A stretch of DNA of 64,000 bases from a virus. The stretch lies in IMG/VR virus record IMGVR_UViG_3300045988_154040; one strand, given 5' to 3'. This document shows, one piece after another, positions 3,912 to 40,909 of this stretch (the first letter of the stretch is position 1; each line of letters begins with the position of its first letter). The position numbers and the translations under genes were made by a program. A model generated the notes under the pieces. That model worked only from the letters and a program-made list of their open reading frames with translations. It was not told the DNA's origin and did no database searches.

Positions 3912-3938
3912 TTTCTGAAACCTCCTTTGTCCTCCTTT

Positions 3939-6571: not shown

Positions 6572-6960
6572 AACTCTCCAACCATCACCCTCCCCATCCC
6601 TCTTACTATTTATTCATCTATCTCCATCCCTCCCTCCATCTCCCTTATATATATTATATAATATATCTCTACCCTCCACCCATCCCTCCCAATCTCCCCT
6701 ATCTCCCTCCCCTATACTTTCCCCTACATTCTCAATTTCCCTCCCCAAACCATCATTTTCTCCTATACTTTCGCACCTTCTTCACCTCAACTTTTCCCGT
6801 CTCGATTGATAACATTCCGAATTTCTCACAATCCCCATTTCATCCCTTTATTTTTAGCCATGCACCTTTCCTAATCTCAACTATTTAATTGACCTTTCAG
6901 CAACCCCAAAAATCAGAAAAAATCTCAAAAAAATTTTTCACACCATCCAAAATTTTAGCT
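6572..6960. repeat. G-depleted, C-run-rich arm of the mirror-composition locus
   Basis: I count about 12 G in 389 nt, and 6572-6772 (201 nt) has no G. C3-4 runs are dense, e.g. 6671-6724 ACCCTCCACCCATCCCTCCCAATCTCCCCTATCTCCCTCCCCTATACTTTCCCC. Confidence 0.9.
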
Positions 6961-7128
6961 CGCTACACCCCATTCTGATTTGAGCAGATTGTGCCTGAAA
7001 TACACCCTGTTACAACCTCATATACGGCATATCTGACCGTTTTCTGTCTTATCGTGACCAATCCTCCATTTCTCATATTTGAACGCTTCTACTCTCTTGT
7101 ACTCGTTCATATTTTTTAAAAATTAAAT

Positions 7129-7161
7129 TTAAAAAAGAGAACCGCTGATTTCGATTCTCTT
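7129..7161 (-). terminator. rho-independent terminator ending the 15.2->7.2 kb minus-strand operon
   Basis: Stem AAGAGAA/TTCTCTT (7135-7161) with a U-run on the minus strand (A6 at 7131-7136). Confidence 0.65.
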
Positions 7162-7224
7162 TTAAGAAGAAATAGTTATAAAAAATGGTAAGGTATACTA
7201 TCATTTTTCTTTGAATCTTTTCTA

Positions 7225-7782
7225 TTATAATTTATCAGTAGAAGTGTAACCGTTTTCTCTGTCCCACACTTTTGTGTAGTGGTTGAACACGCCGATATAT
7301 GCCGCACAATTGGTAGTATAGATTGCATCAATATCAAAACTATCATCTTCATCTTCATTATCTCGACAAGTCAAATCACTTTTGTAGGTGTTTAAATCCA
7401 TCCATCCATAACTATTTAATCTTCCGTTTATTCCAATGCGCCGTAGCACATTAGTACTGGAAATTGGGGTATTTTTCATATCTGTATTAAGCATTACTAA
7501 ATACATACTTTCGCTTTTTGTCTCCACAATCATTCCTGACTTGAGGAAATCTTTGGGGGTGATATCTTCTTCTTTTTCTTTTGGAGGGGCTGTATCTGTG
7601 AACTGAATATGCTCTACTCTGGGGATTATCATTTTTCCGCTGGGGAGTTTTACCAAGGCAACAGGATATTGGCCCAATGAATCTTCATCATAATTGGTGC
7701 TAAAGCCGCAAAACTCGCCGTCTTTGAAAAGTACGTATCCTAATTTTTCATCCCAATATTTACCACAACATTTACCTTCCAT
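7225..7782 (-). CDS. hypothetical protein; C-terminal domain paralogous to 9200-9616
   Basis: Shared blocks: DFLKSGMIVE..YLV / NDLKTGMFVK..YFV, WMDLNTYKSDLT / WLSLANYNEDLT, YTKVWDRE / YVKIWDRD. Confidence 0.6.
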   Translation of the reverse strand: MEGKCCGKYWDEKLGYVLFKDGEFCGFSTNYDEDSLGQYPVALVKLPSGKMIIPRVEHIQFTDTAPPKEKEEDITPKDFLKSGMIVETKSESMYLVMLNTDMKNTPISSTNVLRRIGINGRLNSYGWMDLNTYKSDLTCRDNEDEDDSFDIDAIYTTNCAAYIGVFNHYTKVWDRENGYTSTDKL

Positions 7783-7793
7783 ATCTTTCCTCC

Positions 7794-8138
7794 TTAAAAT
7801 GAAAATGGGTCTTTATTTTCCAAGGATTCCACTTCTTCCCATGCATCTTCATTTTCTGGTGGGATTGATGGGATTTTCTTATTAGGGTTCTTTGATTTTT
7901 GGGGAGTTGGGACTTCATAGCGGTCAGCATAAATAACCAATTCATTGATTACTTCTTTTCTGCCATCTACAGTGAAACCAACTATATTTAGCAATTCTGC
8001 CGCCAATTCATCATGGCGCACAGGATAATCTGCAAATACCACTTTCAGATTTTTTCCTTTGATTGCATCATCATTAAGTATGTTTCTTAAAACATTTGTT
8101 GTTAAAAACACTTTCTTAGGTTGGGAATTTTTCATCAT
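7794..8138 (-). CDS. hypothetical protein; paralog of 9882-10205
   Basis: MMKNSQPKKVFLTTNVLRNILNDD...ENKDPFSF aligns end to end with MMKNPQPQPNKAFLTTDVLRSILNDD...ENKDPFKDPFLF. Confidence 0.65.
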   Translation of the reverse strand: MMKNSQPKKVFLTTNVLRNILNDDAIKGKNLKVVFADYPVRHDELAAELLNIVGFTVDGRKEVINELVIYADRYEVPTPQKSKNPNKKIPSIPPENEDAWEEVESLENKDPFSF

Positions 8139-8238
8139 GAATTTTTCTCCTTCTTGCGAAATTTGTGATTGATAGTTATGGCCCTCATATACTGGCTGAA
8201 TATCTCTAATTCATCTGCTGCTTGTAATTCCTTTTAAA

Positions 8239-8523
8239 TTAATTTTTACTTGCTAACCCAATTTTTTTCATTTTTTTCATAAATAACTTCATTTCATAAT
8301 ACGTAAGTCCAACACAGGTATTGCCAATTTTCTTATTATCCATCAAATTTTTATCATATGACTGAATAATATGTTTACCTGATTTTTTATATGATAAATC
8401 AACACATTGTGTATACTTATATTTTTTATCATCTCTTTCGTAAGAAGCTCCGTATTCATTTTCTGATACTTTTGTAAATCCAATTTCTTTTAACCTATCA
8501 TCAATACTCTTAAATAATTTCAT
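8239..8523 (-). CDS. hypothetical protein
   Basis: 94-aa ORF; no motif recognised. Confidence 0.55.
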   Translation of the reverse strand: MKLFKSIDDRLKEIGFTKVSENEYGASYERDDKKYKYTQCVDLSYKKSGKHIIQSYDKNLMDNKKIGNTCVGLTYYEMKLFMKKMKKIGLASKN

Positions 8524-8744
8524 TATATATTCCTCTTTCTTTCTCTAATTATAAAATTCTTCAAAATTACTCTTTAAATACTTCTTTTGCTGTCTATAAA
8601 ATCGTTATGGGAAATATAAATTGAAACTGGAAGAACTTTGCCATTTTCACCCAAAAATCCATATCCCAAAGTCGCTCTTATCGCATCAGTTTTTTTATAA
8701 AAATCCCAAAGTTGTTAAATATAAAAAATAAATAAAGGAGAACT

Positions 8745-8891
8745 ATGAATAATTATCAGTACGTAAACATTATAATAAATATAAATTGTAAGGAAGGGTG
8801 TAAACGTACTGCTAAAGAGGGTATAAATCCTTTATCTATTTTAATAAATATGGCTGTTGGCATTATAACAATAGTTAAATTTATTAGATAA
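8745..8891 (+). CDS. small hydrophobic-tailed peptide (48 aa) on the opposite strand to all neighbours
   Basis: Hand-translated MNNYQYVNIIININCKEGCKRTAKEGINPLSILINMAVGIITIVKFIR. RBS AAAGGAG at 8735-8741. A weak hairpin plus T-run follows at about 8913-8935. Confidence 0.35.
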   Translation: MNNYQYVNIIININCKEGCKRTAKEGINPLSILINMAVGIITIVKFIR

Positions 8892-8975
8892 AGTATAACC
8901 ATTATTTTTTTCAAGTCCCCTGTGTGTCATCACCGGAGACTTTTTATATTATGTCCACATCAATTATTTATTATT

Positions 8976-9164
8976 TTATGTTAATATAAATATCCATAAA
9001 ATAATTATGGTTATTATCCAAATTATTTTCATTTCTTTTTTATAAGTATCATTTTTATTAAATATTATCCATATAGATGTAAATATACAAATAATAGTAG
9101 CAATTAATTGAAGCATAAATAAAAATATTGTCATAAATTTCCTTTCTAATATTTCTATATGCAT
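8976..9164 (-). CDS. small two-TM membrane protein
   Basis: Two hydrophobic stretches: FLFMLQLIATIICIFTSIWIIF and IIWIITIIILWIFIL. Confidence 0.5.
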   Translation of the reverse strand: MHIEILERKFMTIFLFMLQLIATIICIFTSIWIIFNKNDTYKKEMKIIWIITIIILWIFILT

Positions 9165-9199
9165 TCCCCTAAATTATATTGGGGGGGATTAAAATATTT

Positions 9200-9616
9200 T
9201 TATAAACGGCGGCGAGATATACTATAATCTCTAAAATTTCCGTGTTCATCAATAATATGTTTCTTTAATAATTGTTTTTTTACTATTTCGTTTTTGGTTT
9301 TATCTCTATCCCATATTTTTACATATGCATCAATATCACCAATTTCTACTGCAAATACAGCACGATACACTTCTTCGATGTTAAAAATATTTTCGGAGCT
9401 ATATTGAGTATGAAATGTTAAATCTTCATTATAATTAGCTAAGCTTAACCACTCATGTGTTCCTGATAAGCCATCATACTTTATATTTGTAAAATTTATT
9501 AATATATCTTTAGCAGTAGTAGTTGTTTCATTCATTCCTGTATCACGAAGTACAAAATAAATTCTACCATCTGTAATTTTTACAAACATACCTGTTTTTA
9601 AATCATTCTTCGTCAT
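9200..9616 (-). CDS. hypothetical protein (domain paralog of the 7225-7782 C-terminus)
   Basis: See the shared sequence blocks listed for 7225-7782. Confidence 0.6.
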   Translation of the reverse strand: MTKNDLKTGMFVKITDGRIYFVLRDTGMNETTTTAKDILINFTNIKYDGLSGTHEWLSLANYNEDLTFHTQYSSENIFNIEEVYRAVFAVEIGDIDAYVKIWDRDKTKNEIVKKQLLKKHIIDEHGNFRDYSISRRRL

Positions 9617-9863
9617 TGTTCTTTCTCCAATTTTCTGTGTTCCAACATATATTACATGGAATTTCTTGTTCTACACAATCATTTATTTTTTCTAAAATTA
9701 TAGAAAATTCGTCAGGGCAATATGCATTGATGATTATATTCTTTTGTTCTTCTTCTGTTAAAGAATTCCAGTTTTCTTCATTCCTAACATTTAGCATTTT
9801 ATTTTTTTCAAGTATAGTCTCTTTACAATTTTGTAACACATAATCTATAACTTTAATTTCCAT
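9603..9863 (-). CDS. hypothetical Cys-containing protein
   Basis: 86-aa ORF whose stop overlaps the start of the next gene. Confidence 0.5.
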   Translation of the reverse strand: MEIKVIDYVLQNCKETILEKNKMLNVRNEENWNSLTEEEQKNIIINAYCPDEFSIILEKINDCVEQEIPCNICWNTENWRKNNDEE

Positions 9864-9881
9864 ATTTTATTCTCCTTTAAA

Positions 9882-10205
9882 TTAAAATAAAAATGGGTCT
9901 TTAAAAGGGTCTTTATTTTCTTGTGATTCTGTTTCTTCGTCCAAAATATCATTTGTTTTCTGTAAAGTTGGAGTTTCATAACAATTAGTATAGATAACTA
10001 ATTCTTTAATTTCTTCTTTCTTACCTTCTACAGTAAAACCAGTTATATTTAATAATTCTACTGCTAATTCATCATGATATACAGGATAATTAACAAATAC
10101 TACTTTGTAATTATTTTCTTTAACTGTATCATCATTAAGTATACTCCTGAGAACATCTGTTGTTAAAAATGCTTTATTAGGCTGAGGCTGAGGATTTTTC
10201 ATCAT
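9882..10205 (-). CDS. hypothetical protein; paralog of 7794-8138
   Basis: Full-length similarity to 7794-8138. Confidence 0.65.
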   Translation of the reverse strand: MMKNPQPQPNKAFLTTDVLRSILNDDTVKENNYKVVFVNYPVYHDELAVELLNITGFTVEGKKEEIKELVIYTNCYETPTLQKTNDILDEETESQENKDPFKDPFLF

Positions 10206-10216
10206 GATTTTTCTCC

Positions 10217-10405
10217 TTAATGATTAGCAAAACATGCATTACGCTGAGCATTGTTAAGTTTAAAGTAAATACATTTAGGTTCACTTTTAAAATTCATAGC
10301 ATATGCTTTTGTAATAATAGAATTAATTTCTTTTGTAAATTTTTCAAAATCATCTCTATAAGCACAAACATTTCTATGAACACAATTTTCACAAGCGTCA
10401 CTCAT
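10217..10405 (-). CDS. small Cys-rich protein
   Basis: MSDACENCVHRNVCAYRDD...; 62 aa. Confidence 0.5.
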   Translation of the reverse strand: MSDACENCVHRNVCAYRDDFEKFTKEINSIITKAYAMNFKSEPKCIYFKLNNAQRNACFANH

Positions 10406-10419
10406 AACCGTTCCTCCTT

Positions 10420-10656
10420 TTAAGCTGTTGTATAACTGTTGTACAGCTTTATAGCATCTTTTAATTTAATGAATGGGGTTTCAACCACTTTTAAGGGGCC
10501 GTTCTCCACAAAAGATTCTTTAATGACCACATAAGAAATCTTGTCGAAATTGGGAATCTGAGGATTGATACAGCCAAACAACATTACCCTCATTTCACTA
10601 TCCTTGTACTCACTCATGATAAACCTCTTAAATAATTCTTCTCTTACTTTATTCAT
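10420..10656 (-). CDS. hypothetical protein
   Basis: 78-aa ORF in the operon. Confidence 0.5.
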   Translation of the reverse strand: MNKVREELFKRFIMSEYKDSEMRVMLFGCINPQIPNFDKISYVVIKESFVENGPLKVVETPFIKLKDAIKLYNSYTTA

Positions 10657-10670
10657 TTCTCATTCTCCTT

Positions 10671-10955
10671 TTATAATATTTTTATTATTTTTATGTTGTA
10701 ATGAGAATCTAAATAATCTTTAAGAATATTTAAATCATCATTTTCATTTTCTCCACTTATCCTAAATTCTATTGTATCTTTTAATAATTCAGTGTTGCAG
10801 TTAAATTCAGTAATGCCTAATAAACTTTTGGCGTTTACTTCTTTTCTTATAGTTTTATTAACCAATCTTACATCACTGTTTAAAGTACAGGTGCAAGAAA
10901 CAACAGATGGAAAATTATGGGGATAACTTTTAAAACAAAATGAAAATATTTTCAT
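10671..10955 (-). CDS. HPr/Crh-like phosphocarrier-fold protein (divergent)
   Basis: VNAKSLLG matches the HPr Ser46 loop VNLKSIMG. SGENENDDLNILKDYL matches SGADENDALNALEETM. His13 (YPHNFPS vs GIHARPA) lies exactly 31 residues before the Ser, as His15-Ser46 does in B. subtilis HPr. Arg17 is replaced by Phe. Confidence 0.6.
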   Translation of the reverse strand: MKIFSFCFKSYPHNFPSVVSCTCTLNSDVRLVNKTIRKEVNAKSLLGITEFNCNTELLKDTIEFRISGENENDDLNILKDYLDSHYNIKIIKIL

Positions 10956-10973
10956 AATATTTTTCTTCTTTCT

Positions 10974-11255
10974 TTACAAGAACAGCCAGGAGTACAGGGA
11001 GAAAAATGGATATAGGATAACCCTGACGATTGATAGGATACAAGTTAGTACAAACAAGAACAAGAGACTTAACACGTCAAAGGGTAACATCCACCAATTT
11101 GTATAAACATTTACCTTGTGCTTTGTTTTACTATGCCACCAGCATTTTAAATCGAATAACTGATAAATAAATAGCTGATTAAACCAATTTCCTTTCACCG
11201 CTAATTCTTTATTACAGATTTTACAAACTCCTTGTCTTTTCTTTATCATTTCCAT
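10974..11255 (-). CDS. membrane protein with N-terminal CxxC
   Basis: GVCKICNKE is followed by the hydrophobic C-terminal half WWMLPFDVLSLLFLFVLTCILSIVRVILYPFF. Confidence 0.5.
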   Translation of the reverse strand: MEMIKKRQGVCKICNKELAVKGNWFNQLFIYQLFDLKCWWHSKTKHKVNVYTNWWMLPFDVLSLLFLFVLTCILSIVRVILYPFFSLYSWLFL

Positions 11256-11482
11256 ATATTTTCTTTTTTCTCCTTTTCTTTATCTTCTTTATATCGTTTA
11301 TAGAATATTTCCATTTGTTTCTCAATTTCTGGGTCGTTTAATTCTTCTTCTGGCATTTGAGCACGACTTCCACCTACAGCACAAGGAGATATTTTATATA
11401 TTTCATGAAATAAATTGTAATCTGACATAACTGTACAATCTCCCATAGAATCTTCAAATCTACAACCAGAACCGTAGCACAT
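11246..11482 (-). CDS. small Cys-rich protein with a Lys/Glu-rich tail
   Basis: MCYGSGCRFEDSMGDC...; 78 aa. Confidence 0.5.
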   Translation of the reverse strand: MCYGSGCRFEDSMGDCTVMSDYNLFHEIYKISPCAVGGSRAQMPEEELNDPEIEKQMEIFYKRYKEDKEKEKKENIWK

Positions 11483-11561
11483 AATTTCTCCTTTGCTTTA
11501 TATGTACTTTGCCGATATATCAAATCAATTATAAATATATCGGTAAGTTGATGTTACATAG

Positions 11562-11590
11562 ACTATATCATATAAAATAATATATGTCAA
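11562..11590 (-). promoter_or_regulatory. sigma-A-type promoter TTGACA-17 bp-TATAGT (minus strand)
   Basis: Plus-strand tgtcaa at 11585-11590 and actata at 11562-11567. Confidence 0.55.
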
Positions 11591-16033: not shown

Positions 16034-19000
16034 ATGCAAAATAGTAGAAGAAAAATATTTAAGATTTCTACAGAGAGATTAGCTTCTAACAATTGGGATA
16101 TTAAGTTAGACCAAAAATTAGCTGTAAGGTTAGATGAATTAGTAGATTTATTTGATAATCAGTCTTTTAGGTTGTTGGATATTATTTCCAAAGCTTACAA
16201 ATCCAATCTTACAGATAAAGTGCTGGCAGTAGAAATATCTAAGAAAAAAGATTATGCCAGGGCTACTTCTCCAAAAGGCATTTATGTAAATGGTTTTAAT
16301 TTCCAATGGTTTGTAGGAACTACAGGAGGATTGAAAAATGAAACTATTTTATTTGTTCGTTCTGACCTTTTAGAAGAATTAGATAAAAGATGTGAATGCG
16401 GCAGAAAAAAAGATTATAAACTGGTTCCTGCAAAGTACGAAGCTTATAAATCTCTTACTTGTTCTGCATCTTTAGAAATTGTGGAACCTAGAGATGTACT
16501 TGTGGTTTCTGATTGTTTTGTTGATTTTTATGACAATGTAATCAATATAGATGATACAAACAATGACGAACCAGAAGTAACAATATTGGAAAATATTTTA
16601 CTTGAAAACAATGGTAGTGATGGTTTAAATTTATGTACACCAGAATATATGCAGAGAGTAGCAGAAAAACTTAATTTAGATTATATTCCTGCTGGTGGCT
16701 GTTTAAGAAATGCTTGGCTTAAGGGAATGTTGTATGTGTTTGATATTCTTGATTTTGCCGAGAAAATAGCTCAAACTTACGAAGTGAAAGATATTTGGGG
16801 ACATATTCATGATATTCGCAATGTGGATATGATTATTACAGAATCCAGTTTAAAGATTTGGGATAATTATGATAGTTGGGAAGATTATCATAGCAATTAT
16901 ATAAAAAATGGCTATCGTTTCGCCATGACTAAAGTTACACCTAAAGTTTTGGATGATGTAAGAGAAATAAATTATCAGTACTTACAATCTTACGAATTGA
17001 CAGATGAAGATATTAAAGAGTTGGCTAAACCTACTGTTGATTGGCTTAAGCAATCTTTGACTGGCGATTATGAACAAACTTTAAAATTTCTGGGAATAAG
17101 TGAAAAAACAAAGAGTAATGATTATGCACAAGCATTATATCTTAATCCAGAAATGATGAAAGACCCTTATGTAATTGACAGAATTAATAAAATGATAAAG
17201 AAAAAAATCAATAATGCTAAGATTGGTAAATTATTGGTTAATGGAAATTATCAGCTTGTAAGTGGCGACCCTTATGCTTTAATGCAACATGTTTTTGGGT
17301 TAGAAGTTACAGGTCTTTTAGAAGCAAAAGAAGTTTATTCCAAATATTGGAATGATAAAGAAGATGCAGAAGAATTAGTATGTTTTCGTAGTCCTATGAC
17401 AAGTCATAACAATATTCGTAAAATGAAAAGAATTAATAATGATACTGTGAATTATTGGTATCGTCATATGGATACTATATTTATTATTAACAACAAAGAT
17501 ACGTTTTGTATGGCTATGAACGGATGCGATTTTGATTAGTAATATAGTCCTTTGTTTTTTAACAAAGCAAGTGGTGAACCATCAGAGTATGGGTGTATAG
17601 ACTACTTTTTATTTATAAAAAAGGAATTGTAGGAAATGACAATTTGAGTCTGTGCTAACAGGGAAAGCCTAAACTTAATTGTAGATAAGCATGGTAATCC
17701 TGTGGGAAATAAAATAAAAATGTTTGCTTGTTGTAAAACAGAAAACAAACAAAAATATTTTTATTGGAAACCTTAAACGACTATCCCTTGGTCTGGTCGC
17801 AATATAAATACAGACAATAGGAGTAGGGCCATAGCGATATGGTGAGTGAAAACCTCTTAAATCGAAGTGCCACTGAACAAATATTGCAATTTAATATTTG
17901 TGAAAGATATAGTCTATTCCCTCCAAGCAATATTGGAGTTAAAGTACTGGGAAACCAGGGGTATTAAAGGGAGATGCAATTTATTCTACAAATAATTCAG
18001 TATTGTTAAGAAAATATAAGGAACTATTGGCTATTCAGTGTGTACAAAGAAAAGCAGAAAAACAAATTGTTACTAGGTCTATGATAAAAAAGAGCAATTA
18101 CAAAGGATTGGGAAATGGGGTTGGTAAAATTACCAACGATGTATCCAGTATGATTGATATTCTCTTTGGGTTACAAAAGGGTACAATTGAGTACGAGACA
18201 CTTTACAAACGTATTCTATGTGGTCAGCTATTTCAGCAAAATGAATTGGATTAACCTAAAAAATTGAGTCCAATTAAAAATCGGTGAACCTAGAAATCTA
18301 GGGTGTTTATTCTACGTGCAGGAGCGGAATTGTAGTAAATGACAATTTGAGAATAAGCTAACAGGGAAAATCTTAATAATAAAAATATTAATATAAAATA
18401 ATAAAAAAAGAGGTGAAAAATAAATGAAAAGAAAAGATTTAACAAATAATATTTATGGATGTTTAAAAGTATTATCTATAAATGAAGAAGAAACAAAACA
18501 GCAATTTAAAAAAATTATTATTAAGACAATCCTGTGCCAAGCTTAAAGAGAAATCTTTTTGAAGGTTAAACGACTAAGACATACGACCTAAGTTTTATAA
18601 AAAATATGGTTATGAAGTCTGTAGCTTTAAGGTGAAATTCCTTATTGCGAAGCGCCGATTGCCATTAGAATATTAATGGTAATGATATAGTCTATTCTCT
18701 ATGGTGACATAGAGTAGTAAAGAAATTAAAGGGTATTATTGCTAAAGATATGCCAAAGAATTGGTATATGAGGAATCATTGTAAAACAGAAATTGATAAA
18801 AAAATAGTTGCTGATAAAAAACCATATTATTTCATGTATAATTATCCTACTATAAAAAAAGATTATGATAATTATATTAAACATAGTAATAATAAATGTT
18901 TGATGTTATATGGATGTACCGTAGAAGAATTAGAAGCAAAATATTTGGAGAATCCAGAAATTTTTTCTGAGAACTGTAAAGAGTTTTTATATTGGTATCA

Positions 19001-19448
19001 TGCACAAATGCCAGTTAATTGTTCTCCATCTACAATGAATCGTTTATGTTGGTATATTGAATCTGAGTTTAATGGATATGTCACTCAATTAAAGAATCAA
19101 AATTTTGACTATACTTTTTTAAAGAATAATAAAGTTGTTCGATATCCAAAAGCAAAAAAAGAAGAAATTGAAAAATTAGAAAAAGAATATGTACGCAGAA
19201 TTAAAAACTTTAAAATAATTGCCAAAGAAAATAATTTATCTGCTGAAGAAGCTAATAAAAAGACAGAAGCATTACAACAAGAATTTAGAGATGAAGCAAT
19301 AAAAATTTGTTCTAATAAATGGCAATTGATGAATATAGTATTAGATTTATGCTATGGAAAGAATAAGAACAAATATTTTTGTTGGGCTGTTATTGGAGAT
19401 TTAATAATTGAAAAATTAAAAGAAGATGGAGAGAAAGAAAATGAATAA
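16034..19448 (+). CDS. YonO-like single-subunit (two-barrel) RNA polymerase in three exons: join(16034..17536,17970..18251,18732..19448), 833 aa
   Basis: Exon 1 ends ...AMNGCDFD and exon 2 begins GDAIYS.... The restored NGCDFDGD resembles the NADFDGD/DxDGD metal loop. The size is close to SPbeta YonO (recalled). HU-like genes lie downstream, as yonN lies next to yonO. Confidence 0.6.
17537..17969 (+). mobile_element. group I intron (no ORF) in the RNAP gene
   Basis: R-like TTAAACGACTATCCC at 17773-17787 and S-like AAGATATAGTC at 17904-17914 give P7 GACTAT/ATAGTC. P1 is GAT|TA (17534-17538) with TAGTC (17545-17549), including U.G at the splice site. The intron ends in G17969, and the junction restores the reading frame. 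Confidence 0.75.
18252..18731 (+). mobile_element. group I intron with a degenerate homing-endonuclease remnant in the RNAP gene
   Basis: P1 is AATTGGAT (18244-18251) with GTCCAATT (18268-18275). R-like TTAAACGACTA at 18566-18576 and S-like TGATATAGTC at 18683-18692. It shares the block GGAATTGTAG(G/T)AAATGACAATTTGAG...GCTAACAGGGAAA with intron 1. A 40-aa ORF at 18424-18546 (MKRKDLTNNIYGCLKVLSI...) looks like the N-terminus of a homing endonuclease. Confidence 0.7.
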
Positions 19449-22376: not shown

Positions 22377-25300
22377 ATGAATGAAAATGAAGAAATAGAA
22401 TTTAAACAACCTACTATAACAGAATTAATTGAAGAACGTAAAAGAAAAAATGAAGCAAAGAAAAAGAAAAATAAAAAAATACCTTATGAACAAAGAAGAA
22501 AAAATATTATAGAATGGACTACTTTTTATAGACGTAATTGGAATCTTTATGCAGTGCATAGATTAATGTTGTCTCTATACCCTTTTCAGCATATTATGCT
22601 TTATTTAATGGGTATAAGTAGTACATTTTTTGCTATATGTAGTCGAGGTTTATCAAAAACCTTTATTGTGGCATTAGGTGCGTTAATTCATGGATTGCTT
22701 TATCCTTATGCAGAAGTGGTTATTACTTCTTCTACTATTCCACAGGCCAAGAAAATGGTAGATAAGAAAATGGAGAATGAATTGTGTAAAAAACTTTCTC
22801 CATTGTTACAATATTATTATGAACATGAAGATATTAAATTTTCATATAGTGATAATGAGATAAAAGTTGAAATTAAACCAACAAATTCAACTATTTTAGT
22901 ACTTCCTTGTTTGGACAGTGCTAGAGGTGGAAACATTAAGTTGCACAACTCGCCTCTCTGGTTGGTGACAATCAGTAAAAATAAATTGGGAAAGAAACCT
23001 GGAAACCTGAAATGGTAATCAGAATGGAAGGATACGTGTAATAGCGTATTCACATGCAGAGCGTAGACATTGAACCTGTTTGAATCAGAATATAATATGT
23101 CCAAGAGTTCCCAACCCTTTAAATATAAAGGTGAAAAGGTACGCCGACCTTGCTAGAAATACAATAGCAAGAACTATGGGATAAAAAGCCCATAGGATAA
23201 CATTTGGAACGTGCAACTTTTCTTATATATGAAGAATGTAGACTTTTGAAAAAGACTATTATAGATAGTGTTTTTCAGAAAATGGCCCATCCACGTCAAG
23301 CTAAATTTTTAACTTTATCAGAATATCAAGATGAAGATGGAAAACCTTTATCTCGATGGTTAGAGGAATGTAAATCTGTTTATATTACTTCTGCTAGATT
23401 CAAGATAGAATGGTTTTGGACGGAATTTAAAAAAGTAGTTCAACAATGTATGATATCTAATAAGCATAAATATAATTTCTTTGCAGGAAATATATTTTTA
23501 GCAATATTATATGGTTTAAAAACATGGCAAGATTATTTTCATGCCAAAGAATTTGATAGTGATATAGACCATAGAACAGAGGATTTAAATGAAATGATAG
23601 GGGAAGCAGATGGAGCTTTCTTTTCTATGGAATCTTTTAAAAAGAACCAAATTATACGTAATGCTTTTAAACCTCCTACTATATTGGATTTATATTCTAA
23701 TGTAGATTTAGGAAACAGACCCAAGAAAGATGGAGAAAAACGATTAATATTCATTGACTATGCTTTTGCGAATACTACATCAAATTCTAAAAATGATAAC
23801 AGTGTTATTGGCTGTATGTCTGTTATTTTTAGAGATGATGGGAAAACCTTAAGGGAAGTAGATTATATAGGTACTCACCCCGCAGGAGACAGTATAGGAT
23901 TTAACTTGAAAATTAGAGAATTTTTCTTTGATTATCAAGCTGACTATATTGTATTGGATTAATTCTGAGGTCCACTTTTATGGTGACATAAAATGAATAA
24001 ATGTGTTGAATTGCTGGAAACCCCTAAAGCCACATGAACCACAACGTAAGTATGAAATAAGACTAAGCGTGATGGTGACGAAAGTAGAAAAAATCATGTG
24101 GATGGCATAAGGTTAAATCCTAAGTGCTTTAAAATGGGCAATCAGCCGCCAAGCTCTGAATAGGAGAAGGTTCAACGACTATCCCGCAAGGGAGTACACT
24201 GCAAGCGATTGGCAGTGGAAGTGGCACACATCTTATGAAATTAAGATGAAGATATAGTCTGCTCTATATGGAAACATATAGTATCTAACGTGTAGCGGCG
24301 TTTTCTTAACTTATAAAAAGTAAATAAGACAGAGGGTAGCTCCCTTTTCTTGTACTGCAATACAGGATTATTATTTACTTTTTATCATATCTTTTTGCAG
24401 AAAGGTTTAAGGTAGAAATTATGAAAATTTGGGAAGTAAATTCTAGTAAGCGTTTTAATTTTGGTTGTATTTATTTATGGACTAATCTTATTAATGGTAA
24501 ACATTATGTTGGACAGACAGTTAATTTTTATCAACGTATTCAACGATATAAGAAAGGTTTAATTAATTCTTATATGAAAGAAGATATTGATAAATATGGT
24601 ATGGAAAATTTTAAAGTTGAAATATTGGAAAGGATAGAAGATATTTCAAATGAAGATTTCCTTACTGAAAGAGAGCAATATTGGATGGATTATTATCAGT
24701 CTTATGATTTAGAAAAAGGCTATAATATATTTGATGTTGCTGGCAATGTCTGTTATTTAAAACGTAGTGATACTATTAAAGAAAGATTTTGTGGAGAAGG
24801 AAATGGAATGTATGGTAAACATCATTCTGATGAATGGAAACAAAATCATTCTGATTGCGTAAAAGGTTTGTGGAAAAAAGAAGAATATAGAAAAGTTCAG
24901 ACAGAAAGGATGCAAGGAGAAAATAATCCTATGTATGGGGTATCTTTAGATGGTGAGAAAAATGGAATGTATGGTAAACATCATTCTGATGAAACCAAAA
25001 GAAAGATAGCTGAAAGTAAAATAGGGAAAACTCATGCACCTACTCATTTTAAAAGAGTGAGATGTGTTGAAACTGGAAAAATCTATAATAGTCAGAGTGA
25101 AGCCGCACAAGAGTATGGCATAACTCCGGCCGCAATCAGTTTAGTTTGTAAAGGTAAAAATAAGACAGCCAAGAAAATGCATTGGGAATTTGTAGACTAA
25201 TCTCAAAAATAGTAATAGAAACAATACAAGACTCAGAAATGGCGGTGAAGTAAATTTTAATGACCTTACTACAATTCTTGAACATCCTCAAAGAGATGAA

Positions 25301-36081: not shown

Positions 36082-37128
36082 ATGGCTGATATTTATTTGG
36101 CTGGTGTAGCCACAGTTGATTTGTACGATGGACGGGAATTATTTTCCACAGCAAAAACTCTGGTAGATTCTTCGATTTCTTTAAACGTATCTTTGGAGGA
36201 AATTCGTGCAGGACAGGGCGCAAAGCTGTACGGTAAGTATGCACATTCCTCTGTAATGGACCTTAACCTTACAGACGCTATGTTCCGTTTGGAATATATT
36301 GCTAAGAATGTAGGTAGTGAAATTTCTATTGGAGGTACGGCAATTTTTAATGAGCAGGTTACAGTTTCTACTGCTGGAAGTATTGATGTAACCAATACTC
36401 CTGTCTCATTTGGAAGCTATGGAGCGGTAGTTTGGTATAAGAAACCTTCGGAATCTTCTTGGACTTCTGCTATACCAAATGGTAAAACTGTTAGTATCAC
36501 TGGTGCAACAGTAGGAGAAATTTATTGTGTTAAGTATGCAAATACTTTTGATTCTATGCGAGTATTAACAGTAAATGCTAACTTTATTCCTGCGACTGTT
36601 CATGCGGTTATGACTGCTTCACTTTTCCAGGGTAACAGTAATAATCCTAATGATGCCAATACGACAAAGATTGGTGAGGTTCAGATTGATATTCCACGTC
36701 TTATGCTTTCTGGTGCGCAGGATATCACTATGAATATGACAGGTGCGGCTCAAACACCTCTTACTGGTTCAGCATTGGCTACCAGTGAAACAGAAGGGTG
36801 TGAAGAGGATGCTATTTACGGTACTATTAAAGAAATTATTAATGGTGCCAATTGGGTTAATGACGCATATGCTTTAGCTATTACTCAGCCTGATATAGAA
36901 CTTACTGTTGGAGAAAAGGAAACTATTAGTGCTTATGCATTAATTAGAAATGCTTCTCCTAAAAAAGTAAATCCAACTCAGTTGACATTTACAAGCTCTG
37001 CTATTGCTACTGCCACTGTAGAGAACACAGGCGAAGTAAAAGGTGTAGCGGCTGGTACTACTACGATAAACGTAGCTTTAACCGCTAATCCTACAATAGA
37101 AGGTTTTGCTAATGTAACTGTGGCATAA
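36082..37128 (+). CDS. major tail (tube) protein with C-terminal Big_2 Ig-like domain
   Basis: C-terminus TFTSSAIATATVENTGEVKGVAAGTTTINVALTANPTIEGFANVTV is a typical Big_2 domain. Elevated GC. No sheath gene was seen, so the phage is probably a siphovirus. Confidence 0.6.
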   Translation: MADIYLAGVATVDLYDGRELFSTAKTLVDSSISLNVSLEEIRAGQGAKLYGKYAHSSVMDLNLTDAMFRLEYIAKNVGSEISIGGTAIFNEQVTVSTAGSIDVTNTPVSFGSYGAVVWYKKPSESSWTSAIPNGKTVSITGATVGEIYCVKYANTFDSMRVLTVNANFIPATVHAVMTASLFQGNSNNPNDANTTKIGEVQIDIPRLMLSGAQDITMNMTGAAQTPLTGSALATSETEGCEEDAIYGTIKEIINGANWVNDAYALAITQPDIELTVGEKETISAYALIRNASPKKVNPTQLTFTSSAIATATVENTGEVKGVAAGTTTINVALTANPTIEGFANVTVA

Positions 37129-37154: not shown

Positions 37155-37188
37155 AAATGGGAATGAGAGATACCTCTTGTTCCCATTT
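37155..37188 (+). terminator. hairpin after the tail tube gene
   Basis: AAATGGGAA...TTCCCATTT 9-bp stem with no clear T-run. Confidence 0.4.
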
Positions 37189-37217
37189 GTACATAATTTA
37201 GAAAGAGGTGTAAAAGT

Positions 37218-37556
37218 ATGTGTCCAGATTCATATAAAGATAAAGTAGGAAACAGAGAAATGATTAAATGTCGTAAACAAGGAGGAAATATATGTCCTTT
37301 TGTTTATTGGTGTGAGAAAATTCAGGATTGGAAACCTTTAAGAGATACTCAGGAAACTTGTATGATTAGAACTAGGGTGGAAAAACCAGATAATGCCAGC
37401 ATAGTTAGATTTGAAAAGAAAGGCCAGCTATATATAGAATATGATAACGGAGTAATTGTATTAGATAATCCTTTTAATTTTGTGCCTAAATATGTTACTT
37501 TAATTAAAGGCAAAAATGGAACTTTTTACATTAATAAGAAAAAAGGATATCAGTAA
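37218..37556 (+). CDS. Cys-rich hypothetical protein
   Basis: MCPDSYKD...CRKQGGNICPFVYWCEK...; 112 aa. Confidence 0.5.
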   Translation: MCPDSYKDKVGNREMIKCRKQGGNICPFVYWCEKIQDWKPLRDTQETCMIRTRVEKPDNASIVRFEKKGQLYIEYDNGVIVLDNPFNFVPKYVTLIKGKNGTFYINKKKGYQ

Positions 37557-37599
37557 TAATTATTATATTAAAGGTCCGAAAGTCTTTATAAAATAAAAA

Positions 37600-37635
37600 A
37601 AGAGTTATATAACATAAAAAATATAACTCTTTTTA
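37600..37635 (+). terminator. rho-independent terminator
   Basis: AAGAGTTATAT (37600-37610) pairs with ATATAACTCTT (37621-37631), followed by a T-run. Confidence 0.65.
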
Positions 37636-37664
37636 TTGACATTATAACAAATAGATGATATAAT
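37636..37664 (+). promoter_or_regulatory. consensus sigma-A promoter TTGACA-17 bp-TATAAT for the MazF cassette
   Basis: TTGACA at 37636-37641 and TATAAT at 37659-37664. Confidence 0.7.
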
Positions 37665-37693
37665 AACCTTATAAAAATATAAGGAGGTTTATT

Positions 37694-38140
37694 ATGAAAC
37701 TTGGATTTAATGATTTGATTGAAGCGTATAATGAATTCAAATTTATTCAAAGTACTTATAAAGGAGAAAAAACAGACTGGTACGAAGTTCATTTAAAACT
37801 TTACAATCTTATGAAAAGTTTAAACGAAGATGTACGTCAGAGCGGTAATTATAGCTTTAATCTTTTTGTTAAGAGAAATTTATTATCCGCAATAGAAGAA
37901 GAGTATACCAGAGTAGGTAAAATTATTGATGAAAAAGAAAGAAAAGAAATGGAAAAATCTAATAAAAATACAAGATATTGCCCTAAATGCGGAAAACCTT
38001 TATTTTTTCGTCAAATAATGTTTGAAGGAAGCATACATTATCATTCTGAATGTAAAGGATGCCATTACAGACCTAAAAGCCTTCCAGGAAAAACGATACA
38101 GGAATCTTTAGAATTGTTAGATAATTGGCTTAATAAATAA
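37694..38140 (+). CDS. zinc-ribbon protein; candidate non-canonical antitoxin partner of MazF
   Basis: YCPKCGKP...HSECKGCHY. Lies 30 nt upstream of mazF in the same promoter-terminator unit. It has no RHH/AbrB-like MazE features. Confidence 0.5.
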   Translation: MKLGFNDLIEAYNEFKFIQSTYKGEKTDWYEVHLKLYNLMKSLNEDVRQSGNYSFNLFVKRNLLSAIEEEYTRVGKIIDEKERKEMEKSNKNTRYCPKCGKPLFFRQIMFEGSIHYHSECKGCHYRPKSLPGKTIQESLELLDNWLNK

Positions 38141-38170
38141 ATTAAGCTACATAAATAAGGAGATATTTTT

Positions 38171-38527
38171 ATGAGATATAAACAAAATGTTTGTCGTGGA
38201 GATGTTTTTTATGCAGATTTAAACCCAGTGATAGGAAGTGAACAAGGAGGGATTCGTCCTGTATTGATATTACAAAATAATATAGGAAATAGATTCAGTC
38301 CTACAATTATAGTTGTTCCTTTGACAACTAAGCCCAAAAAGTGTTTACCCATGCATCATGTTATAACTAAAGGCAATTACGAGTTTCTTTTGGCTGATAG
38401 TATAGCATTAGTAGAACAGATAAGAAGTATTGATAGAAGCCGTTTAAAAGAATGGATTGGTTCATTATTAGATAAAGATGTTGAACGAATTTATACTAAG
38501 GCTATTATCAACTTAGCTAGGGATTAA
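38171..38527 (+). CDS. mazF: MazF/PemK-family endoribonuclease toxin
   Basis: [43 protein letters not shown]...[17 protein letters not shown] is close to B. subtilis EndoA ([43 protein letters not shown]...DSVILLEQIRTIDKQRL). Confidence 0.92.
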   Translation: [118 protein letters not shown]

Positions 38528-38553: not shown

Positions 38554-38931
38554 TTGGTGGACGAAGCGGCAGTGCAGGAAATTAAATCGGACTTAAAGGC
38601 CGCGAATGATAAAATAAATGACCATGAAGTTAAGTTGGTTCGTTTGGAAGAATCTCATAAATACATTACACAAATGGCAGAAGATGTTATAGGAGTTACA
38701 AAAGAATTAAATACCACCATGCAGAATGTACAATTAGCTATGATAGGAATACAGGGGAATATGGAAAATTTAACTACTGATATGGGAGATATTAAAGAAC
38801 GAATGAACAAATTTGAAGATGATAATAATATTAATGTTCTTTCTGCCATTAAGAAAAATTGGAAAACTATTGTACTTGCATTAGCTTTTATTAGTTATGT
38901 TATGTTGAGTAAATATGGAATCCATATTTAA
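38554..38931 (+). CDS. XhlA-like coiled-coil protein with C-terminal TM anchor
   Basis: Heptad-rich N-terminus plus C-terminal WKTIVLALAFISYVMLSKYG; directly upstream of the holin, as in the PBSX xhlA-xhlB arrangement. Confidence 0.5.
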   Translation: MVDEAAVQEIKSDLKAANDKINDHEVKLVRLEESHKYITQMAEDVIGVTKELNTTMQNVQLAMIGIQGNMENLTTDMGDIKERMNKFEDDNNINVLSAIKKNWKTIVLALAFISYVMLSKYGIHI

Positions 38932-38961
38932 TCATAGAAACTTAAAATTTATTTTTAAAGA

Positions 38962-39246
38962 ATGAAAGGAAGGTTTAATATGCCAGATTTTGGAATTGTT
39001 TCTATCCCAGCTATTGTTGTAATTGCTTATCTTGCAGGAAGTATTGTAAAGAATTATACTCCGCTTGAAAACAATAAGATTTTGCCTATTGTTGGTATAG
39101 TGGGGGGTATATGTGGAGTGGTAGGTTTCCATATTATGCCTGATTTTCCTGCTCAGGATGTTATGACAGCGGCGGCAGTGGGTATTGTATCGGGAATGGC
39201 CTCTACGTGGGTAGACCAGACCGTAAAGAAGGTTACAAACAAGTAA
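38962..39246 (+). CDS. holin
   Basis: 94 aa with hydrophobic segments IPAIVVIAYLAGSIV, ILPIVGIVGGICGVVGF and AAAVGIVSGMAS and a basic C-terminus. Resembles Clostridium/Bacillus phage holins, from memory. Confidence 0.7.
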   Translation: MKGRFNMPDFGIVSIPAIVVIAYLAGSIVKNYTPLENNKILPIVGIVGGICGVVGFHIMPDFPAQDVMTAAAVGIVSGMASTWVDQTVKKVTNK

Positions 39247-39360
39247 TGGCAAGTACAAATCATTAAAGATAGGTTGATGATAACTTGTTACACTTAAGGG
39301 AGAGTGAGAGTTATACTCTTTTGTACTCTCCCATACATATAAACATAGCAAAGAAAGGAA

Positions 39361-40333: not shown

Positions 40334-40909
40334 ATGAAAAATGTAATATTAGGTTTAGATATGAGTACCCTTTCTTCTGGGTACTCTGTTTTTGATTCCA
40401 AGAAAAAGTTAGTGGATTATGGAGTTTGGAAACAAGACAAGAAAGTTTTATGGAGAGACAGATGTATAAATATGGGGAATGAACTATCTAAATTAATAGA
40501 TGTTTGTTCCCCTTCTTTGATTTATTGTGAAGATACTATTCTTAATGGTGAGTGTGGTGGCAATGTTCAAACAGTTAAAATGCTTTCTGTATTACAAGGA
40601 ATTGTTTTAGGTGTTTCTAATGTTCATGGAGTAGAAATAAAATTCCTTATGCCGTCTACATGGCGCAAAGATTTAGGAGTGTATGATGGAACAAGAGAAG
40701 GAACTAAACGTCCTATGATGAAATATAAAACAATTCAAGTAGTAAATCAAATTTATGGACTTAATTTATTTTATAATTTAAATATACCTAAGTCTGTAAA
40801 GAATCAAGATGATATAGGAGATGCTATTGGCATAGTACATTCTCAGCTTTTCCCAGTTGAAAATGTAAATGTAAAGAAAGGAATGGGGAGAAAAGCCAAA
40901 ACAAAATAA
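40334..40909 (+). CDS. RuvC-like Holliday junction resolvase
   Basis: ILGLDMS (Asp), IYCEDT (Glu) and NQDDIGDAIGIVH (Asp) are in RuvC order. Confidence 0.75.
   Translation: MKNVILGLDMSTLSSGYSVFDSKKKLVDYGVWKQDKKVLWRDRCINMGNELSKLIDVCSPSLIYCEDTILNGECGGNVQTVKMLSVLQGIVLGVSNVHGVEIKFLMPSTWRKDLGVYDGTREGTKRPMMKYKTIQVVNQIYGLNLFYNLNIPKSVKNQDDIGDAIGIVHSQLFPVENVNVKKGMGRKAKTK

What the first reader, a model, noticed from the sequence alone, without database searches (positions are those of the whole stretch)
37600..38527. Autonomous MazF toxin moron inside the tail module, paired with a zinc-ribbon protein instead of MazE
The unit is terminator (37600-37635), perfect TTGACA-17-TATAAT promoter (37636-37664), 148-aa zinc-ribbon ORF, then a very EndoA/MazF-like toxin (38171-38527). 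It is inserted between the tail-tube and tape-measure genes. The upstream partner has none of the RHH/AbrB features of MazE. If it neutralises MazF, it would be a non-canonical antitoxin. If it does not, the phage carries an orphan endoribonuclease expressed from a host-type promoter, which could serve host shut-off, superinfection exclusion or prophage addiction.
Basis: partly seen in the sequence, partly recalled or inferred. Interest (0 to 1): 0.7.

Follow-up and report, generated by a model that had tools for sequence, protein, structure and literature searches.

The report
Antitoxin-less MazF RNase in gut phage
A virulent phage of the gut bacterium Enterocloster bolteae carries an intact MazF-type RNA-cutting enzyme without a recognisable antidote, because the zinc-ribbon gene in front of it is an optional insertion that sister phages lack.

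Summary
The sequence features exist. There is a 14-bp hairpin (37597-37634), a perfect extended -10 sigma-A promoter (37636-37664), a 148-aa ORF and an EndoA/MazF homologue with intact catalytic Arg and Thr. The window is a ~100-kb lytic Enterocloster bolteae siphophage, 99% identical to CB473P3. In its relative PMBT24 the gene is already annotated 'mRNA interferase'.

The antitoxin reading fails. Twelve sister-clade contigs keep promoter, leader, MazF, XhlA-like gene and holin in the same place with no zinc-ribbon gene. Two other relatives have that gene rearranged or frameshifted while MazF stays intact. In a third lineage a terminator and a second promoter separate the two genes. Standalone homologues of its N-terminal domain never sit beside a MazF gene.

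No MazE/AbrB/RHH protein is detectable in the genome. The unit also does not end at 38527, because the XhlA-like and holin genes follow without a terminator.

The best reading is a solitary, clade-conserved phage endoribonuclease, probably used for host and early mRNA shut-off. MazF-like genes occur in 107 phage records, and none of five checked has a canonical MazE beside it, so this is a known but uncharacterised kind.

One new lead: sense-strand UACAUA is almost purged from coding regions (3 versus 28.5 expected). It persists at hairpin-flanked intercistronic sites, including the MazF leader.

The parts
37155..37195 (+). Strong hairpin (37155-37188) followed by TACATA (37190-37195), downstream of the tail-tube gene and upstream of the 112-aa Cys-rich gene
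   Evidence: dG -20.5. TACAT is kept at the same place in PMBT24 and in sister clade L050.
37218..37556 (+). 112-aa Cys-rich protein of unknown function, always directly upstream of the MazF promoter region
   Evidence: Present in every relative at 59-100% identity. No family hit. AlphaFold2 model unreliable, pLDDT 55.
37597..37634 (+). A/T-rich 14-bp hairpin, terminator-like, specific to this subclade
   Evidence: dG -12.6, z -5.7. Absent from PMBT24 and CB457P1.
37636..37664 (+). Sigma-A-type promoter, TTGACA-17-TATAAT with extended -10 TGATATAAT
   Evidence: 12 of 12 matches with TG. Three perfect sites against 0.06 expected. Conserved as TTGACT/TATAAT in PMBT24, L005 and the sister clade. 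Same motif class as four leftward promoters at 331-11590.
37694..38140 (+). 148-aa accessory protein: novel three-helix N-domain (aa 1-88), four-Cys zinc ribbon (aa 95-125), acidic aromatic C-terminal helix (aa 135-146)
   Evidence: AlphaFold2 pLDDT 88. No significant PDB or BFVD fold match; weak Lar-like resemblance only. Least conserved gene of the neighbourhood, 53% against 83-96%. Absent, rearranged or frameshifted in relatives.
38148..38162 (+). MazF leader: TACATA (38148-38153) immediately 5' of the Shine-Dalgarno AAGGAG (38157-38162)
   Evidence: TACAT next to the SD is invariant in four lineages while the flanks diverge.
38171..38527 (+). MazF/EndoA-family endoribonuclease gene (118 aa)
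   Evidence: Pfam PF02452 E = 6.8e-29. PHROG 1936 E = 2e-24. B. subtilis EndoA 4mdx E = 2.6e-28. R29 and T52 invariant. dN/dS 0.18-0.25.
38554..38931 (+). 125-aa coiled-coil protein with C-terminal membrane helix, weakly XhlA/hemolysin-like. Co-transcribed with MazF by position.
   Evidence: PHROG 937 E = 7e-4. 26-nt gap after MazF with no terminator. Kept downstream of MazF in the sister clade.
38980..39246 (+). Holin (Hol44 family)
   Evidence: Pfam PF16079 E = 4e-16. PHROG 1129.
39298..39339 (+). Strong hairpin (39298-39332) followed by TACATA (39334-39339), the probable 3' boundary of the MazF/XhlA-like/holin unit
   Evidence: dG -18.9. Conserved with compensatory changes in PMBT24.

Best explanation
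38171-38527 encodes a solitary MazF/EndoA-type sequence-specific endoribonuclease with no antitoxin. It is a conserved component of a group of ~100-kb strictly lytic Enterocloster siphophages. It is not a recently acquired toxin-antitoxin moron.

A consensus extended -10 promoter of the host sigma-A type precedes it. This is the same motif class as the promoters of the leftward small-gene cluster that I take to be early. Because no terminator follows MazF, that promoter would also drive the XhlA-like membrane protein and holin genes.

Inferred mechanism: host RNA polymerase transcribes the unit, and MazF then cuts single-stranded RNA at a UACAU-type motif. This destroys host messages, and probably early phage messages, much as T4 RegB does. 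A lytic phage needs no antidote.

The 148-aa zinc-ribbon gene is a separate accessory gene that was inserted between the promoter and MazF in one sublineage. It may modulate MazF but is not required for carrying it.

Shown here: gene identity, intact catalytic residues, purifying selection, promoter conservation, absence of MazE, and dispensability of the zinc-ribbon gene. Inferred only: expression timing, cleavage motif and biological role.
For: MazF identity:
- Pfam E = 6.8e-29, and EndoA structures at about 3e-28 with the motifs EQGGxRP, SPT and EQIRxID identical.
- The Arg and Thr aligned to EndoA R25 and T48 are invariant in five phage lineages.
- dN/dS is 0.18-0.25.

MazF is a stable gene of the clade:
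- It is present in all loci of the group, and composition equals that of its neighbours.

The zinc-ribbon gene is dispensable:
- Twelve sister-clade contigs of 60-106 kb have Cys-rich gene, 82-nt spacer with TTGACT-17-TATAT(T/A), UACAU, SD, MazF (124 aa), XhlA-like gene and holin, with no zinc-ribbon gene.
- A scan of all IMG/VR for the zinc-ribbon protein found it in none of those contigs.
- It is rearranged in L047 and frameshifted in L037.
- In L005 a terminator hairpin and TTGATA-17-TATAAT lie between the two genes.

No canonical antitoxin:
- No MazE, AbrB, RHH or Phd hit among 101 small ORFs covering the whole genome.

Promoter:
- 12 of 12 matches with a TG extension; three perfect sites against 0.06 expected.
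- The motif class occurs five times against 0.5 expected. The other four are in the leftward small-gene cluster.

Lifestyle and precedent:
- PMBT24 is reported as strictly lytic (PMC11035940).
- The MazF cluster never occurs on a contig longer than 103.7 kb.
- No relative of the zinc-ribbon gene was found in 185,579 bacterial and archaeal species genomes.
- MazF-like genes occur in 107 phage records. In five other phage lineages examined, none of the flanking genes scanned has a MazE-type domain (TR-TP1 was judged from its annotation only).
Against: - No expression or activity data exist. Timing rests only on promoter class. An early promoter that also drives a holin is awkward.
- The zinc-ribbon gene and MazF stay adjacent, in antitoxin-first order, down to 38% identity of the former. 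The zinc-ribbon gene evolves fastest, as antitoxins often do. Its C-terminal helix is acidic and aromatic like the MazE tail. A facultative inhibitor role in this subclade is therefore not excluded.
- The sister clade was seen only as 13-kb loci plus a pattern-based scan, so a very divergent partner elsewhere in those genomes could have been missed.
- The always-adjacent 112-aa Cys-rich protein is uncharacterised and could be a partner.
- Sense UACAU sites remain in phage coding sequence (86 in an earlier 139-ORF set), so MazF would also hit phage mRNAs unless its motif is longer than five bases.
Confidence: 0.68

Rival explanations
1. The 148-aa zinc-ribbon protein is a lineage-specific, non-canonical protein inhibitor of MazF, making the pair a type II-like module. 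It would bind the MazF dimer through its acidic, aromatic C-terminal helix and set the timing or level of RNase activity.
For: - Adjacency is conserved in upstream-first order across four sublineages, down to 38% identity.
- In this lineage the two genes share a promoter and are 30 nt apart.
- It is the fastest-evolving gene of the neighbourhood, with dN/dS 0.25-0.6 against 0.18-0.25 for MazF.
- Its C-terminal tail carries a charge of -1.5 to -4.2 with a conserved W or F.
- No canonical MazE exists in the genome.
Against: - The sister clade keeps an intact MazF without it.
- It is disrupted in L047 and L037 while MazF stays intact.
- In L005 a terminator and a promoter lie between the genes.
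- N-domain homologues never sit next to a MazF gene, and the full-length homologue P0008 is followed by a non-MazF gene.
- The protein is basic overall, pI 8.2-8.8.
- There is no fold match to any antitoxin.
- A complex could not be modelled.
Confidence: 0.15
2. MazF is the phage's own mRNA-maturation enzyme as well as a shut-off factor. It would recognise UACAUA and cut the polycistronic phage transcripts at hairpin-flanked intercistronic sites, including its own leader. That would leave 3' hairpins and 5'-OH ends, while coding regions have been purged of the motif.
For: - Sense TACATA occurs 3 times against 28.5 expected in 88 kb of ORFs (z -5.8). The reverse complement and TACAT[T/C/G] are not depleted.
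- 7 of 8 sense sites in the rightward region that I take to be late are non-coding. 5 of those 7 directly follow hairpins of -10.9 to -20.5 kcal/mol, against 12% of control positions.
- PMBT24 shows the same pattern, with different hairpin sequences.
- TACAT next to the MazF SD is invariant in four lineages.
- From my own knowledge, B. subtilis, S. aureus and C. difficile MazF all cut U^ACAU. The phage protein is 50% identical to EndoA.
Against: - The specificity of this MazF is unmeasured.
- Strand-specific avoidance together with conserved intergenic copies equally fits a late promoter or start signal for the phage-encoded polymerase or sigma factor annotated in PMBT24.
- The pentamer UACAU is only mildly depleted and not specifically so.
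Confidence: 0.12
3. The MazF homologue serves the lysis cassette. It would be kept with the XhlA-like and holin genes to arrest host translation or adjust holin mRNA just before lysis, or to exclude competing phages.
For: MazF, the XhlA-like gene and the holin gene stay contiguous without a terminator in the window, PMBT24 and sister clades. In the L005 lineage the XhlA-like gene is replaced by an unrelated 110-aa gene.
Against: The evidence is synteny only. The endolysin lies about 15 kb away. Other phages carry MazF in replication or early regions, not beside lysis genes.
Confidence: 0.05

Closest known systems
Bacillus subtilis EndoA (MazF/NdoA) with its antitoxin EndoAI (MazE), PDB 4MDX/4ME7/1NE8
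   Same: Best solved relative, E about 3e-28 and about 50% identity. The EQGGxRP, SPT and EQIRxID motifs are identical, and the Arg and Thr at the catalytic positions are kept. Same protein family.
   Different: No RHH or AbrB-type MazE lies upstream or anywhere in the genome. The gene sits in a lytic phage tail/lysis region and not in a chromosomal operon. The beta3-beta4 loop differs, so the cleavage motif is not certain.
Phage 'MazF-like growth inhibitor' genes (PHROG 1936)
   Same: The protein matches PHROG 1936 at E = 2e-24. 107 phage records carry a relative, many of them virulent phages of Firmicutes. In five other lineages examined, none of the flanking genes scanned has a MazE-type domain (TR-TP1 was judged from its annotation only). 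This locus is another member of that kind.
   Different: Here the gene heads a unit with XhlA-like and holin genes inside the tail module, under a consensus sigma-A promoter. No functional study of any phage MazF was found in the library searched.
Bacteriophage T4 RegB endoribonuclease (own knowledge)
   Same: A phage-encoded, sequence-specific, toxin-like RNase with no antitoxin. It inactivates early messages and helps the switch in gene expression. It is the closest functional analogue of the mechanism proposed here.
   Different: Unrelated fold family (RelE/YoeB-like, not MazF), a different motif (GGAG) and a different host group. The analogy is functional and untested here.
Myxococcus xanthus solitary MazF-mx, controlled by the unlinked regulator MrpC
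   Same: A MazF without a cognate MazE gene, recruited to a programmed process (described in PMC2701414).
   Different: It is chromosomal and developmental, and its partner is encoded elsewhere. No comparable partner was identified here.
Phage P1 Phd-Doc addiction module (own knowledge)
   Different: P1 is a plasmid prophage with a labile antitoxin. This phage group is reported as strictly lytic, has no detectable antitoxin, and no relative of the zinc-ribbon gene was found in bacterial or archaeal genomes.

Membership tests
MazF/PemK endoribonuclease family (Pfam PF02452) | Sequence match above the curated family threshold | tested here: met
   100.7 bits against a cut-off of 23.1, E = 6.8e-29, profile positions 2-104 of 109. 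PHROG 1936 E = 2e-24.
MazF/PemK endoribonuclease family (Pfam PF02452) | Catalytic Arg and Thr at the positions of B. subtilis EndoA R25 and T48 (roles from the literature, own knowledge) | tested here: met
   R29 and T52 align to them and are invariant in all phage lineages, including the sister clade.
MazF/PemK endoribonuclease family (Pfam PF02452) | Sequence-specific, ribosome-independent RNA cleavage and growth inhibition | not testable with these tools
   Requires expression and cleavage mapping.
Type II MazEF toxin-antitoxin module | Adjacent antitoxin with an RHH or AbrB/SpoVT-type DNA-binding domain | tested here: not met
   The upstream protein has only sub-threshold zinc-ribbon hits. 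There is no significant PDB fold match. No MazE, AbrB, RHH or Phd hit was found among 101 small ORFs of the genome.
Type II MazEF toxin-antitoxin module | Toxin and antitoxin inherited together, with the toxin never kept without its antidote | tested here: not met
   Twelve sister-clade contigs have MazF and no zinc-ribbon gene. The zinc-ribbon gene is disrupted in L047 and L037 while MazF is intact.
Type II MazEF toxin-antitoxin module | Single bicistronic operon | tested here: inconclusive
   In the window lineage the genes share a promoter and are 30 nt apart. In L005 a terminator-like hairpin and a promoter-like site separate them. In all lineages transcription would run on into the XhlA-like and holin genes.
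Type II MazEF toxin-antitoxin module | Direct binding and neutralisation of the toxin by the partner | not testable with these tools
Lar-family restriction-alleviation zinc ribbon (NCBIfam TIGR03655), for the C-terminal part of the 148-aa protein | Match above the family cut-off | tested here: not met
   14.1 bits against a cut-off of 39.6, E = 0.045. No Pfam Lar hit. Lar-annotated viral models align at rmsd 2-3 A over 44-60 residues, but only at E = 0.05-0.2.
Moron (independently transcribed accessory insertion in a phage module) | Own promoter and terminator, and variable presence among close relatives | tested here: not met
   This row is for MazF. It has a promoter but no downstream terminator, and it is present in every relative. 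The zinc-ribbon gene does fit the definition: own promoter and terminator in L005, and absent from the sister clade.

The most novel reading that the evidence does not exclude
The phage MazF recognises UACAUA. The phage has purged that word from the sense strand of nearly all its coding sequence while keeping it at conserved, hairpin-flanked intercistronic sites, including the MazF leader. One enzyme would then both destroy host mRNA and trim the phage's own polycistronic transcripts into stable units, and it would regulate itself. This would be a toxin domesticated as a viral RNA-processing enzyme.
Probability: 0.15. Interest if true: 0.8.

Novelty: new member of a known kind. Interest (0 to 1): 0.42.

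Why it matters
MazF-like 'growth inhibitor' genes are annotated in many phages of Firmicutes, yet I found no functional study of any of them. This clade gives a clean natural experiment. Close relatives carry the same MazF with or without the upstream zinc-ribbon gene, so the antitoxin question can be settled by comparison and by a few expression tests.

If the enzyme is active, it is a candidate host shut-off factor in a therapeutically relevant gut phage group. The strand-specific purge of UACAUA and the hairpin-UACAUA elements point to a concrete, testable link between a toxin-family RNase and phage mRNA design.

If the motif turns out instead to be a late promoter, it would still define the transcription signals of an unstudied phage group.

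Tried and rejected
Leads that gave nothing:
- **Zinc-ribbon protein homology.** The word-index search found only near-identical proteins. Exhaustive phmmer found 23 hits, none annotated. PDB sequence, PDB profile, Pfam, NCBIfam, PHROGs and PADLOC searches gave nothing above threshold. Fold searches gave no match at E <= 0.001.
- **RNA antitoxin.** One weak A/T tandem repeat at 37579-37621 overlaps the hairpin's 5' arm, and there was no Rfam hit near the locus.
- **Other family scans.** A scan of bacterial and archaeal genomes for the zinc-ribbon family found nothing. IMG/VR scans with the N-domain family were either impossible or empty.
- **Cys-rich 112-aa neighbour.** Homologues occur only in this phage group, and the model is unreliable at pLDDT 55, so I did not run a fold search.
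- **Polymerase and structural genes.** A Pfam scan of the putative phage RNA polymerase and structural genes gave no hits in this Pfam copy.

Ideas considered and rejected:
- **UACAU pentamer avoidance as proof of MazF targeting.** Depletion is only 0.70, ranks 39 of 1024, and is shared by GACAT and ACAT. Only the hexamer TACATA stands out.
- **Recent horizontal acquisition of the cassette.** GC and GC3 equal those of the neighbours.
- **Prophage addiction.** The lifestyle is lytic and no genomic copies were found.
Full report
**What is in the sequence**

The window carries, on the + strand, the following features:
- a 14-bp A/T-rich hairpin at 37597-37634 (dG -12.6 kcal/mol, z -5.7);
- TTGACA-17-TATAAT with a TG extension at 37636-37664;
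- a 148-aa ORF at 37694-38140;
- a 118-aa ORF at 38171-38527.

A perfect TTGACA-N17-TATAAT occurs three times in the 64 kb against 0.06 expected, so the promoter is not a chance match.

The 118-aa protein is a clear MazF/PemK family member:
- Pfam E = 6.8e-29 and PHROG 1936 'MazF-like growth inhibitor' E = 2e-24.
- Its best solved relatives are B. subtilis EndoA structures at about 3e-28.
- The residues aligned to EndoA Arg25 and Thr48 (R29 and T52 here) are kept. Their catalytic role is from my own knowledge of the literature.

The 148-aa protein has four cysteines in two knuckles and only sub-threshold zinc-ribbon hits.

**Where the window comes from**

The region is 99% identical to Enterocloster phage CB473P3. 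It is 97% identical to CB457P2, CB473P1 and CB473P2, and 85% identical to CB457P1 and PMBT24. These are ~100-kb siphophages of E. bolteae.

In PMBT24 the MazF gene is already annotated 'mRNA interferase'. The PMBT24 paper reports a strictly lytic lifestyle and does not discuss this gene (PMC11035940).

The gene order is:
- tail-tube protein (36082-37128);
- a 112-aa Cys-rich protein;
- the 148-aa protein;
- MazF;
- a 125-aa coiled-coil membrane protein that is weakly XhlA-like;
- a Hol44 holin;
- two unknown genes;
- a RuvC-like resolvase;
- the tape-measure protein.

Only 26 nt separate MazF from the next gene, and no terminator lies between MazF and the end of the holin gene.

The upstream hairpin is specific to the window's subclade, whereas the promoter is conserved in all lineages.

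**The upstream protein**

An AlphaFold2 model (pLDDT 88, pTM 0.72) shows three parts:
- a three-helix N-terminal domain (residues 5-88);
- a beta-hairpin zinc ribbon (102-120);
- a C-terminal helix (135-146).

Neither the PDB nor the viral fold library gives a match at E <= 0.001. The only recurrent resemblance is between the zinc ribbon plus C-terminal helix and Lar-annotated phage models, at E = 0.05-0.2. The Lar HMM scores 14 bits against a cut-off of 39.6, so membership is not met.

An exhaustive phmmer search found 23 relatives. Full-length homologues occur in related phage contigs. About ten standalone ~80-aa proteins match only the N-domain.

The six standalone or alternatively fused N-domain homologues whose contexts could be read sit in runs of small genes, with no MazF gene beside them. 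One full-length homologue is followed by a gene that is not MazF.

The family was not found in 185,579 bacterial and archaeal species genomes.

**Is it the antitoxin?**

Points in favour:
- The two genes stay adjacent in antitoxin-first order in four sublineages, down to 38% identity of the upstream protein.
- The upstream gene is the fastest evolving in the neighbourhood. It shows 53% identity between the window and PMBT24, against 83% for MazF and 69-96% for the other neighbours. Its dN/dS is 0.25-0.6.
- Its C-terminal tail is acidic and aromatic.
- No MazE, AbrB, RHH or Phd domain was detected among 101 small ORFs covering the whole genome.

The decisive evidence goes the other way.

A scan of IMG/VR with the tail-tube protein recovered a sister clade of twelve contigs, 60-106 kb long, with 63-66% tube identity. 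In that clade the order is tube, Cys-rich gene, MazF, XhlA-like gene, holin, two unknown genes, RuvC and tape measure.

There the Cys-rich gene is followed by an 82-nt spacer. The spacer holds TTGACT-17-TATAT(T/A) and then UACAU, the Shine-Dalgarno sequence and an intact 124-aa MazF. There is no room for another gene. The pattern scan for the zinc-ribbon protein across all of IMG/VR did not find it in those contigs.

Three further observations agree:
- In contig L047 (99.8 kb, PMBT24-like) the zinc-ribbon gene has an insertion of about 300 nt and has lost residues ~23-59, while MazF is intact.
- In L037 the gene is frameshifted at the domain linker.
- In the L005 lineage a terminator-like hairpin and a TTGATA-17-TATAAT site lie between the two genes.

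The simplest history is that promoter-MazF is ancestral. The zinc-ribbon gene, with its own promoter and terminator, was inserted upstream in one branch. It is the zinc-ribbon gene, not MazF, that behaves like a moron.

**What MazF most likely does**

MazF is kept in every relative found, under purifying selection (dN/dS 0.18-0.25). Its composition is indistinguishable from its neighbours.

The promoter belongs to a motif class, TTGAC-N14-RTGATAWWWT, found five times in the window against 0.5 expected. The other four copies drive the leftward cluster of small genes at 331-11590. I take that cluster to be early.

PMBT24 is annotated with its own sigma factor and a polymerase-like protein. A host-type promoter inside the structural region therefore suggests expression independent of the late programme.

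I infer that host RNA polymerase expresses MazF and that MazF degrades host, and probably early phage, messages. The closest functional analogue is T4 RegB (own knowledge). A lytic phage does not need an antidote.

The arrangement is not unique. 107 phage records carry a MazF relative. In five other lineages examined, none of the flanking genes scanned has a MazE-type domain. These lineages are Psychrobacillus phage Perkons, the Heliusvirales gut phages, Lactobacillus phages Satyr and Bacchae, and Thomasclavelia phage TR-TP1. TR-TP1 was judged from its annotation only.

The nearest bacterial MazF proteins are about 60% identical. They sit next to recombinases, also without a called MazE-like gene.

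**An unexpected lead**

The sense-strand hexamer TACATA is almost absent from phage coding sequence:
- It occurs 3 times against 28.5 expected from synonymous-codon shuffles over 149 ORFs (z -5.8).
- It ranks 45 of 2262 hexamers. The 25 most depleted words listed above it are mostly restriction-site-like words avoided on both strands.
- Its reverse complement is not depleted, and neither are TACATT, TACATC or TACATG.

In the rightward region that I take to be late, 7 of 8 sense copies lie in the ~11% of non-coding DNA. Five of those seven directly follow strong hairpins (-10.9 to -20.5 kcal/mol), against 12% of control positions.

PMBT24 shows the same pattern with different hairpin sequences. 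One copy sits immediately 5' of the MazF Shine-Dalgarno sequence and is invariant in four lineages whose flanks have diverged.

EndoA-type MazF enzymes of Firmicutes cut U^ACAU (own knowledge). These could therefore be sites where the phage's own MazF trims its transcripts and regulates itself. They could equally be late promoter or start signals for the phage polymerase or sigma factor. Mapping of 5' ends that separates triphosphate from hydroxyl ends would decide between the two.

**Verdict**

The 'non-canonical antitoxin' idea is not supported. The 'orphan endoribonuclease from a host-type promoter' idea is supported.

The locus is a new member of a known but functionally unstudied kind, the phage MazF-like growth inhibitors. 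Its interest is moderate, and it is raised somewhat by the UACAUA lead and by the natural with/without comparison among relatives.

Noticed in passing
window 21437, 25848, 37190, 38148, 39334, 45468, 53394 (+ strand): Recurrent 'strong hairpin followed within 0-2 nt by TACATA' elements lie in intercistronic spacers of the rightward (presumed late) region. Sense TACATA is otherwise nearly purged from coding sequence (3 versus 28.5 expected). The pattern is conserved in PMBT24 with compensatory hairpin changes. These could be processing sites or late promoters.
   Followed up: partly
whole window: GATC is completely absent (0 versus about 181 expected). Strongly avoided or absent from predicted ORFs: GCAGC/GCTGC, ATCGAT, CAGCTG, CTGCAG, CTGGAG and GAAGAC. 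This indicates extensive restriction-site avoidance.
   Followed up: partly
window 23951-24281 (+): A group I intron (Rfam RF00028, 96 bits, E = 1.6e-23) lies between ORFs 23204-23962 and 24421-25200. By position these look like a split terminase large-subunit gene.
   Followed up: no
window 331-359, 2959-2987, 4365-4393, 11562-11590 (- strand) and 37636-37664 (+): A shared promoter motif TTGAC-N14-RTGATAWWWT occurs five times against 0.5 expected. It links the MazF-region promoter to the leftward small-gene cluster that I take to be early.
   Followed up: yes
window 37694-37960 (N-terminal domain of the 148-aa protein); proteins P0010, P0014-P0018, P0020-P0023: An unnamed ~80-aa three-helix domain family (motif Y..I..SY.G..TDW ... 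N..F ... E..R) is found so far only in metagenome assemblies. It occurs alone or fused to different C-terminal domains.
   Followed up: partly
L047 7560-7935 (IMGVR_UViG_3300045988_144793): The zinc-ribbon gene is interrupted about six codons after its start by roughly 300 nt of unrelated sequence and has lost residues ~23-59. The nature of the inserted DNA was not examined.
   Followed up: no
L033 2501-2941 (OGZX01000732.1): The zinc-ribbon gene is a chimera. Its first ~40 codons are window-type and the rest is PMBT24-type, which indicates recombination inside the gene.
   Followed up: no
window 16034-17539 and 18750-19448: The protein annotated in PMBT24 as an 832-aa 'RNA-dependent RNA polymerase' appears here as a 501-aa ORF. 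A gap of about 1.2 kb and a further ORF follow, so the gene may be interrupted in this phage. The Pfam copy available gave no hit.
   Followed up: no
window 38554-39246 and 40334-40909: An XhlA-like gene, a holin and a RuvC-like resolvase are embedded between the tail-tube and tape-measure genes. The endolysin lies about 15 kb downstream. This split lysis arrangement is conserved across the group.
   Followed up: partly
L019, L022 (bacterial contigs with the closest non-phage MazF, about 60% identity): These MazF genes lie next to serine or tyrosine recombinases. A Sigma70_r4-like gene lies upstream and a small gene (52 aa, or a 72-aa HTH_17 protein) lies downstream. No MazE-like gene is called, so they look like integrative mobile elements.
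   Followed up: no
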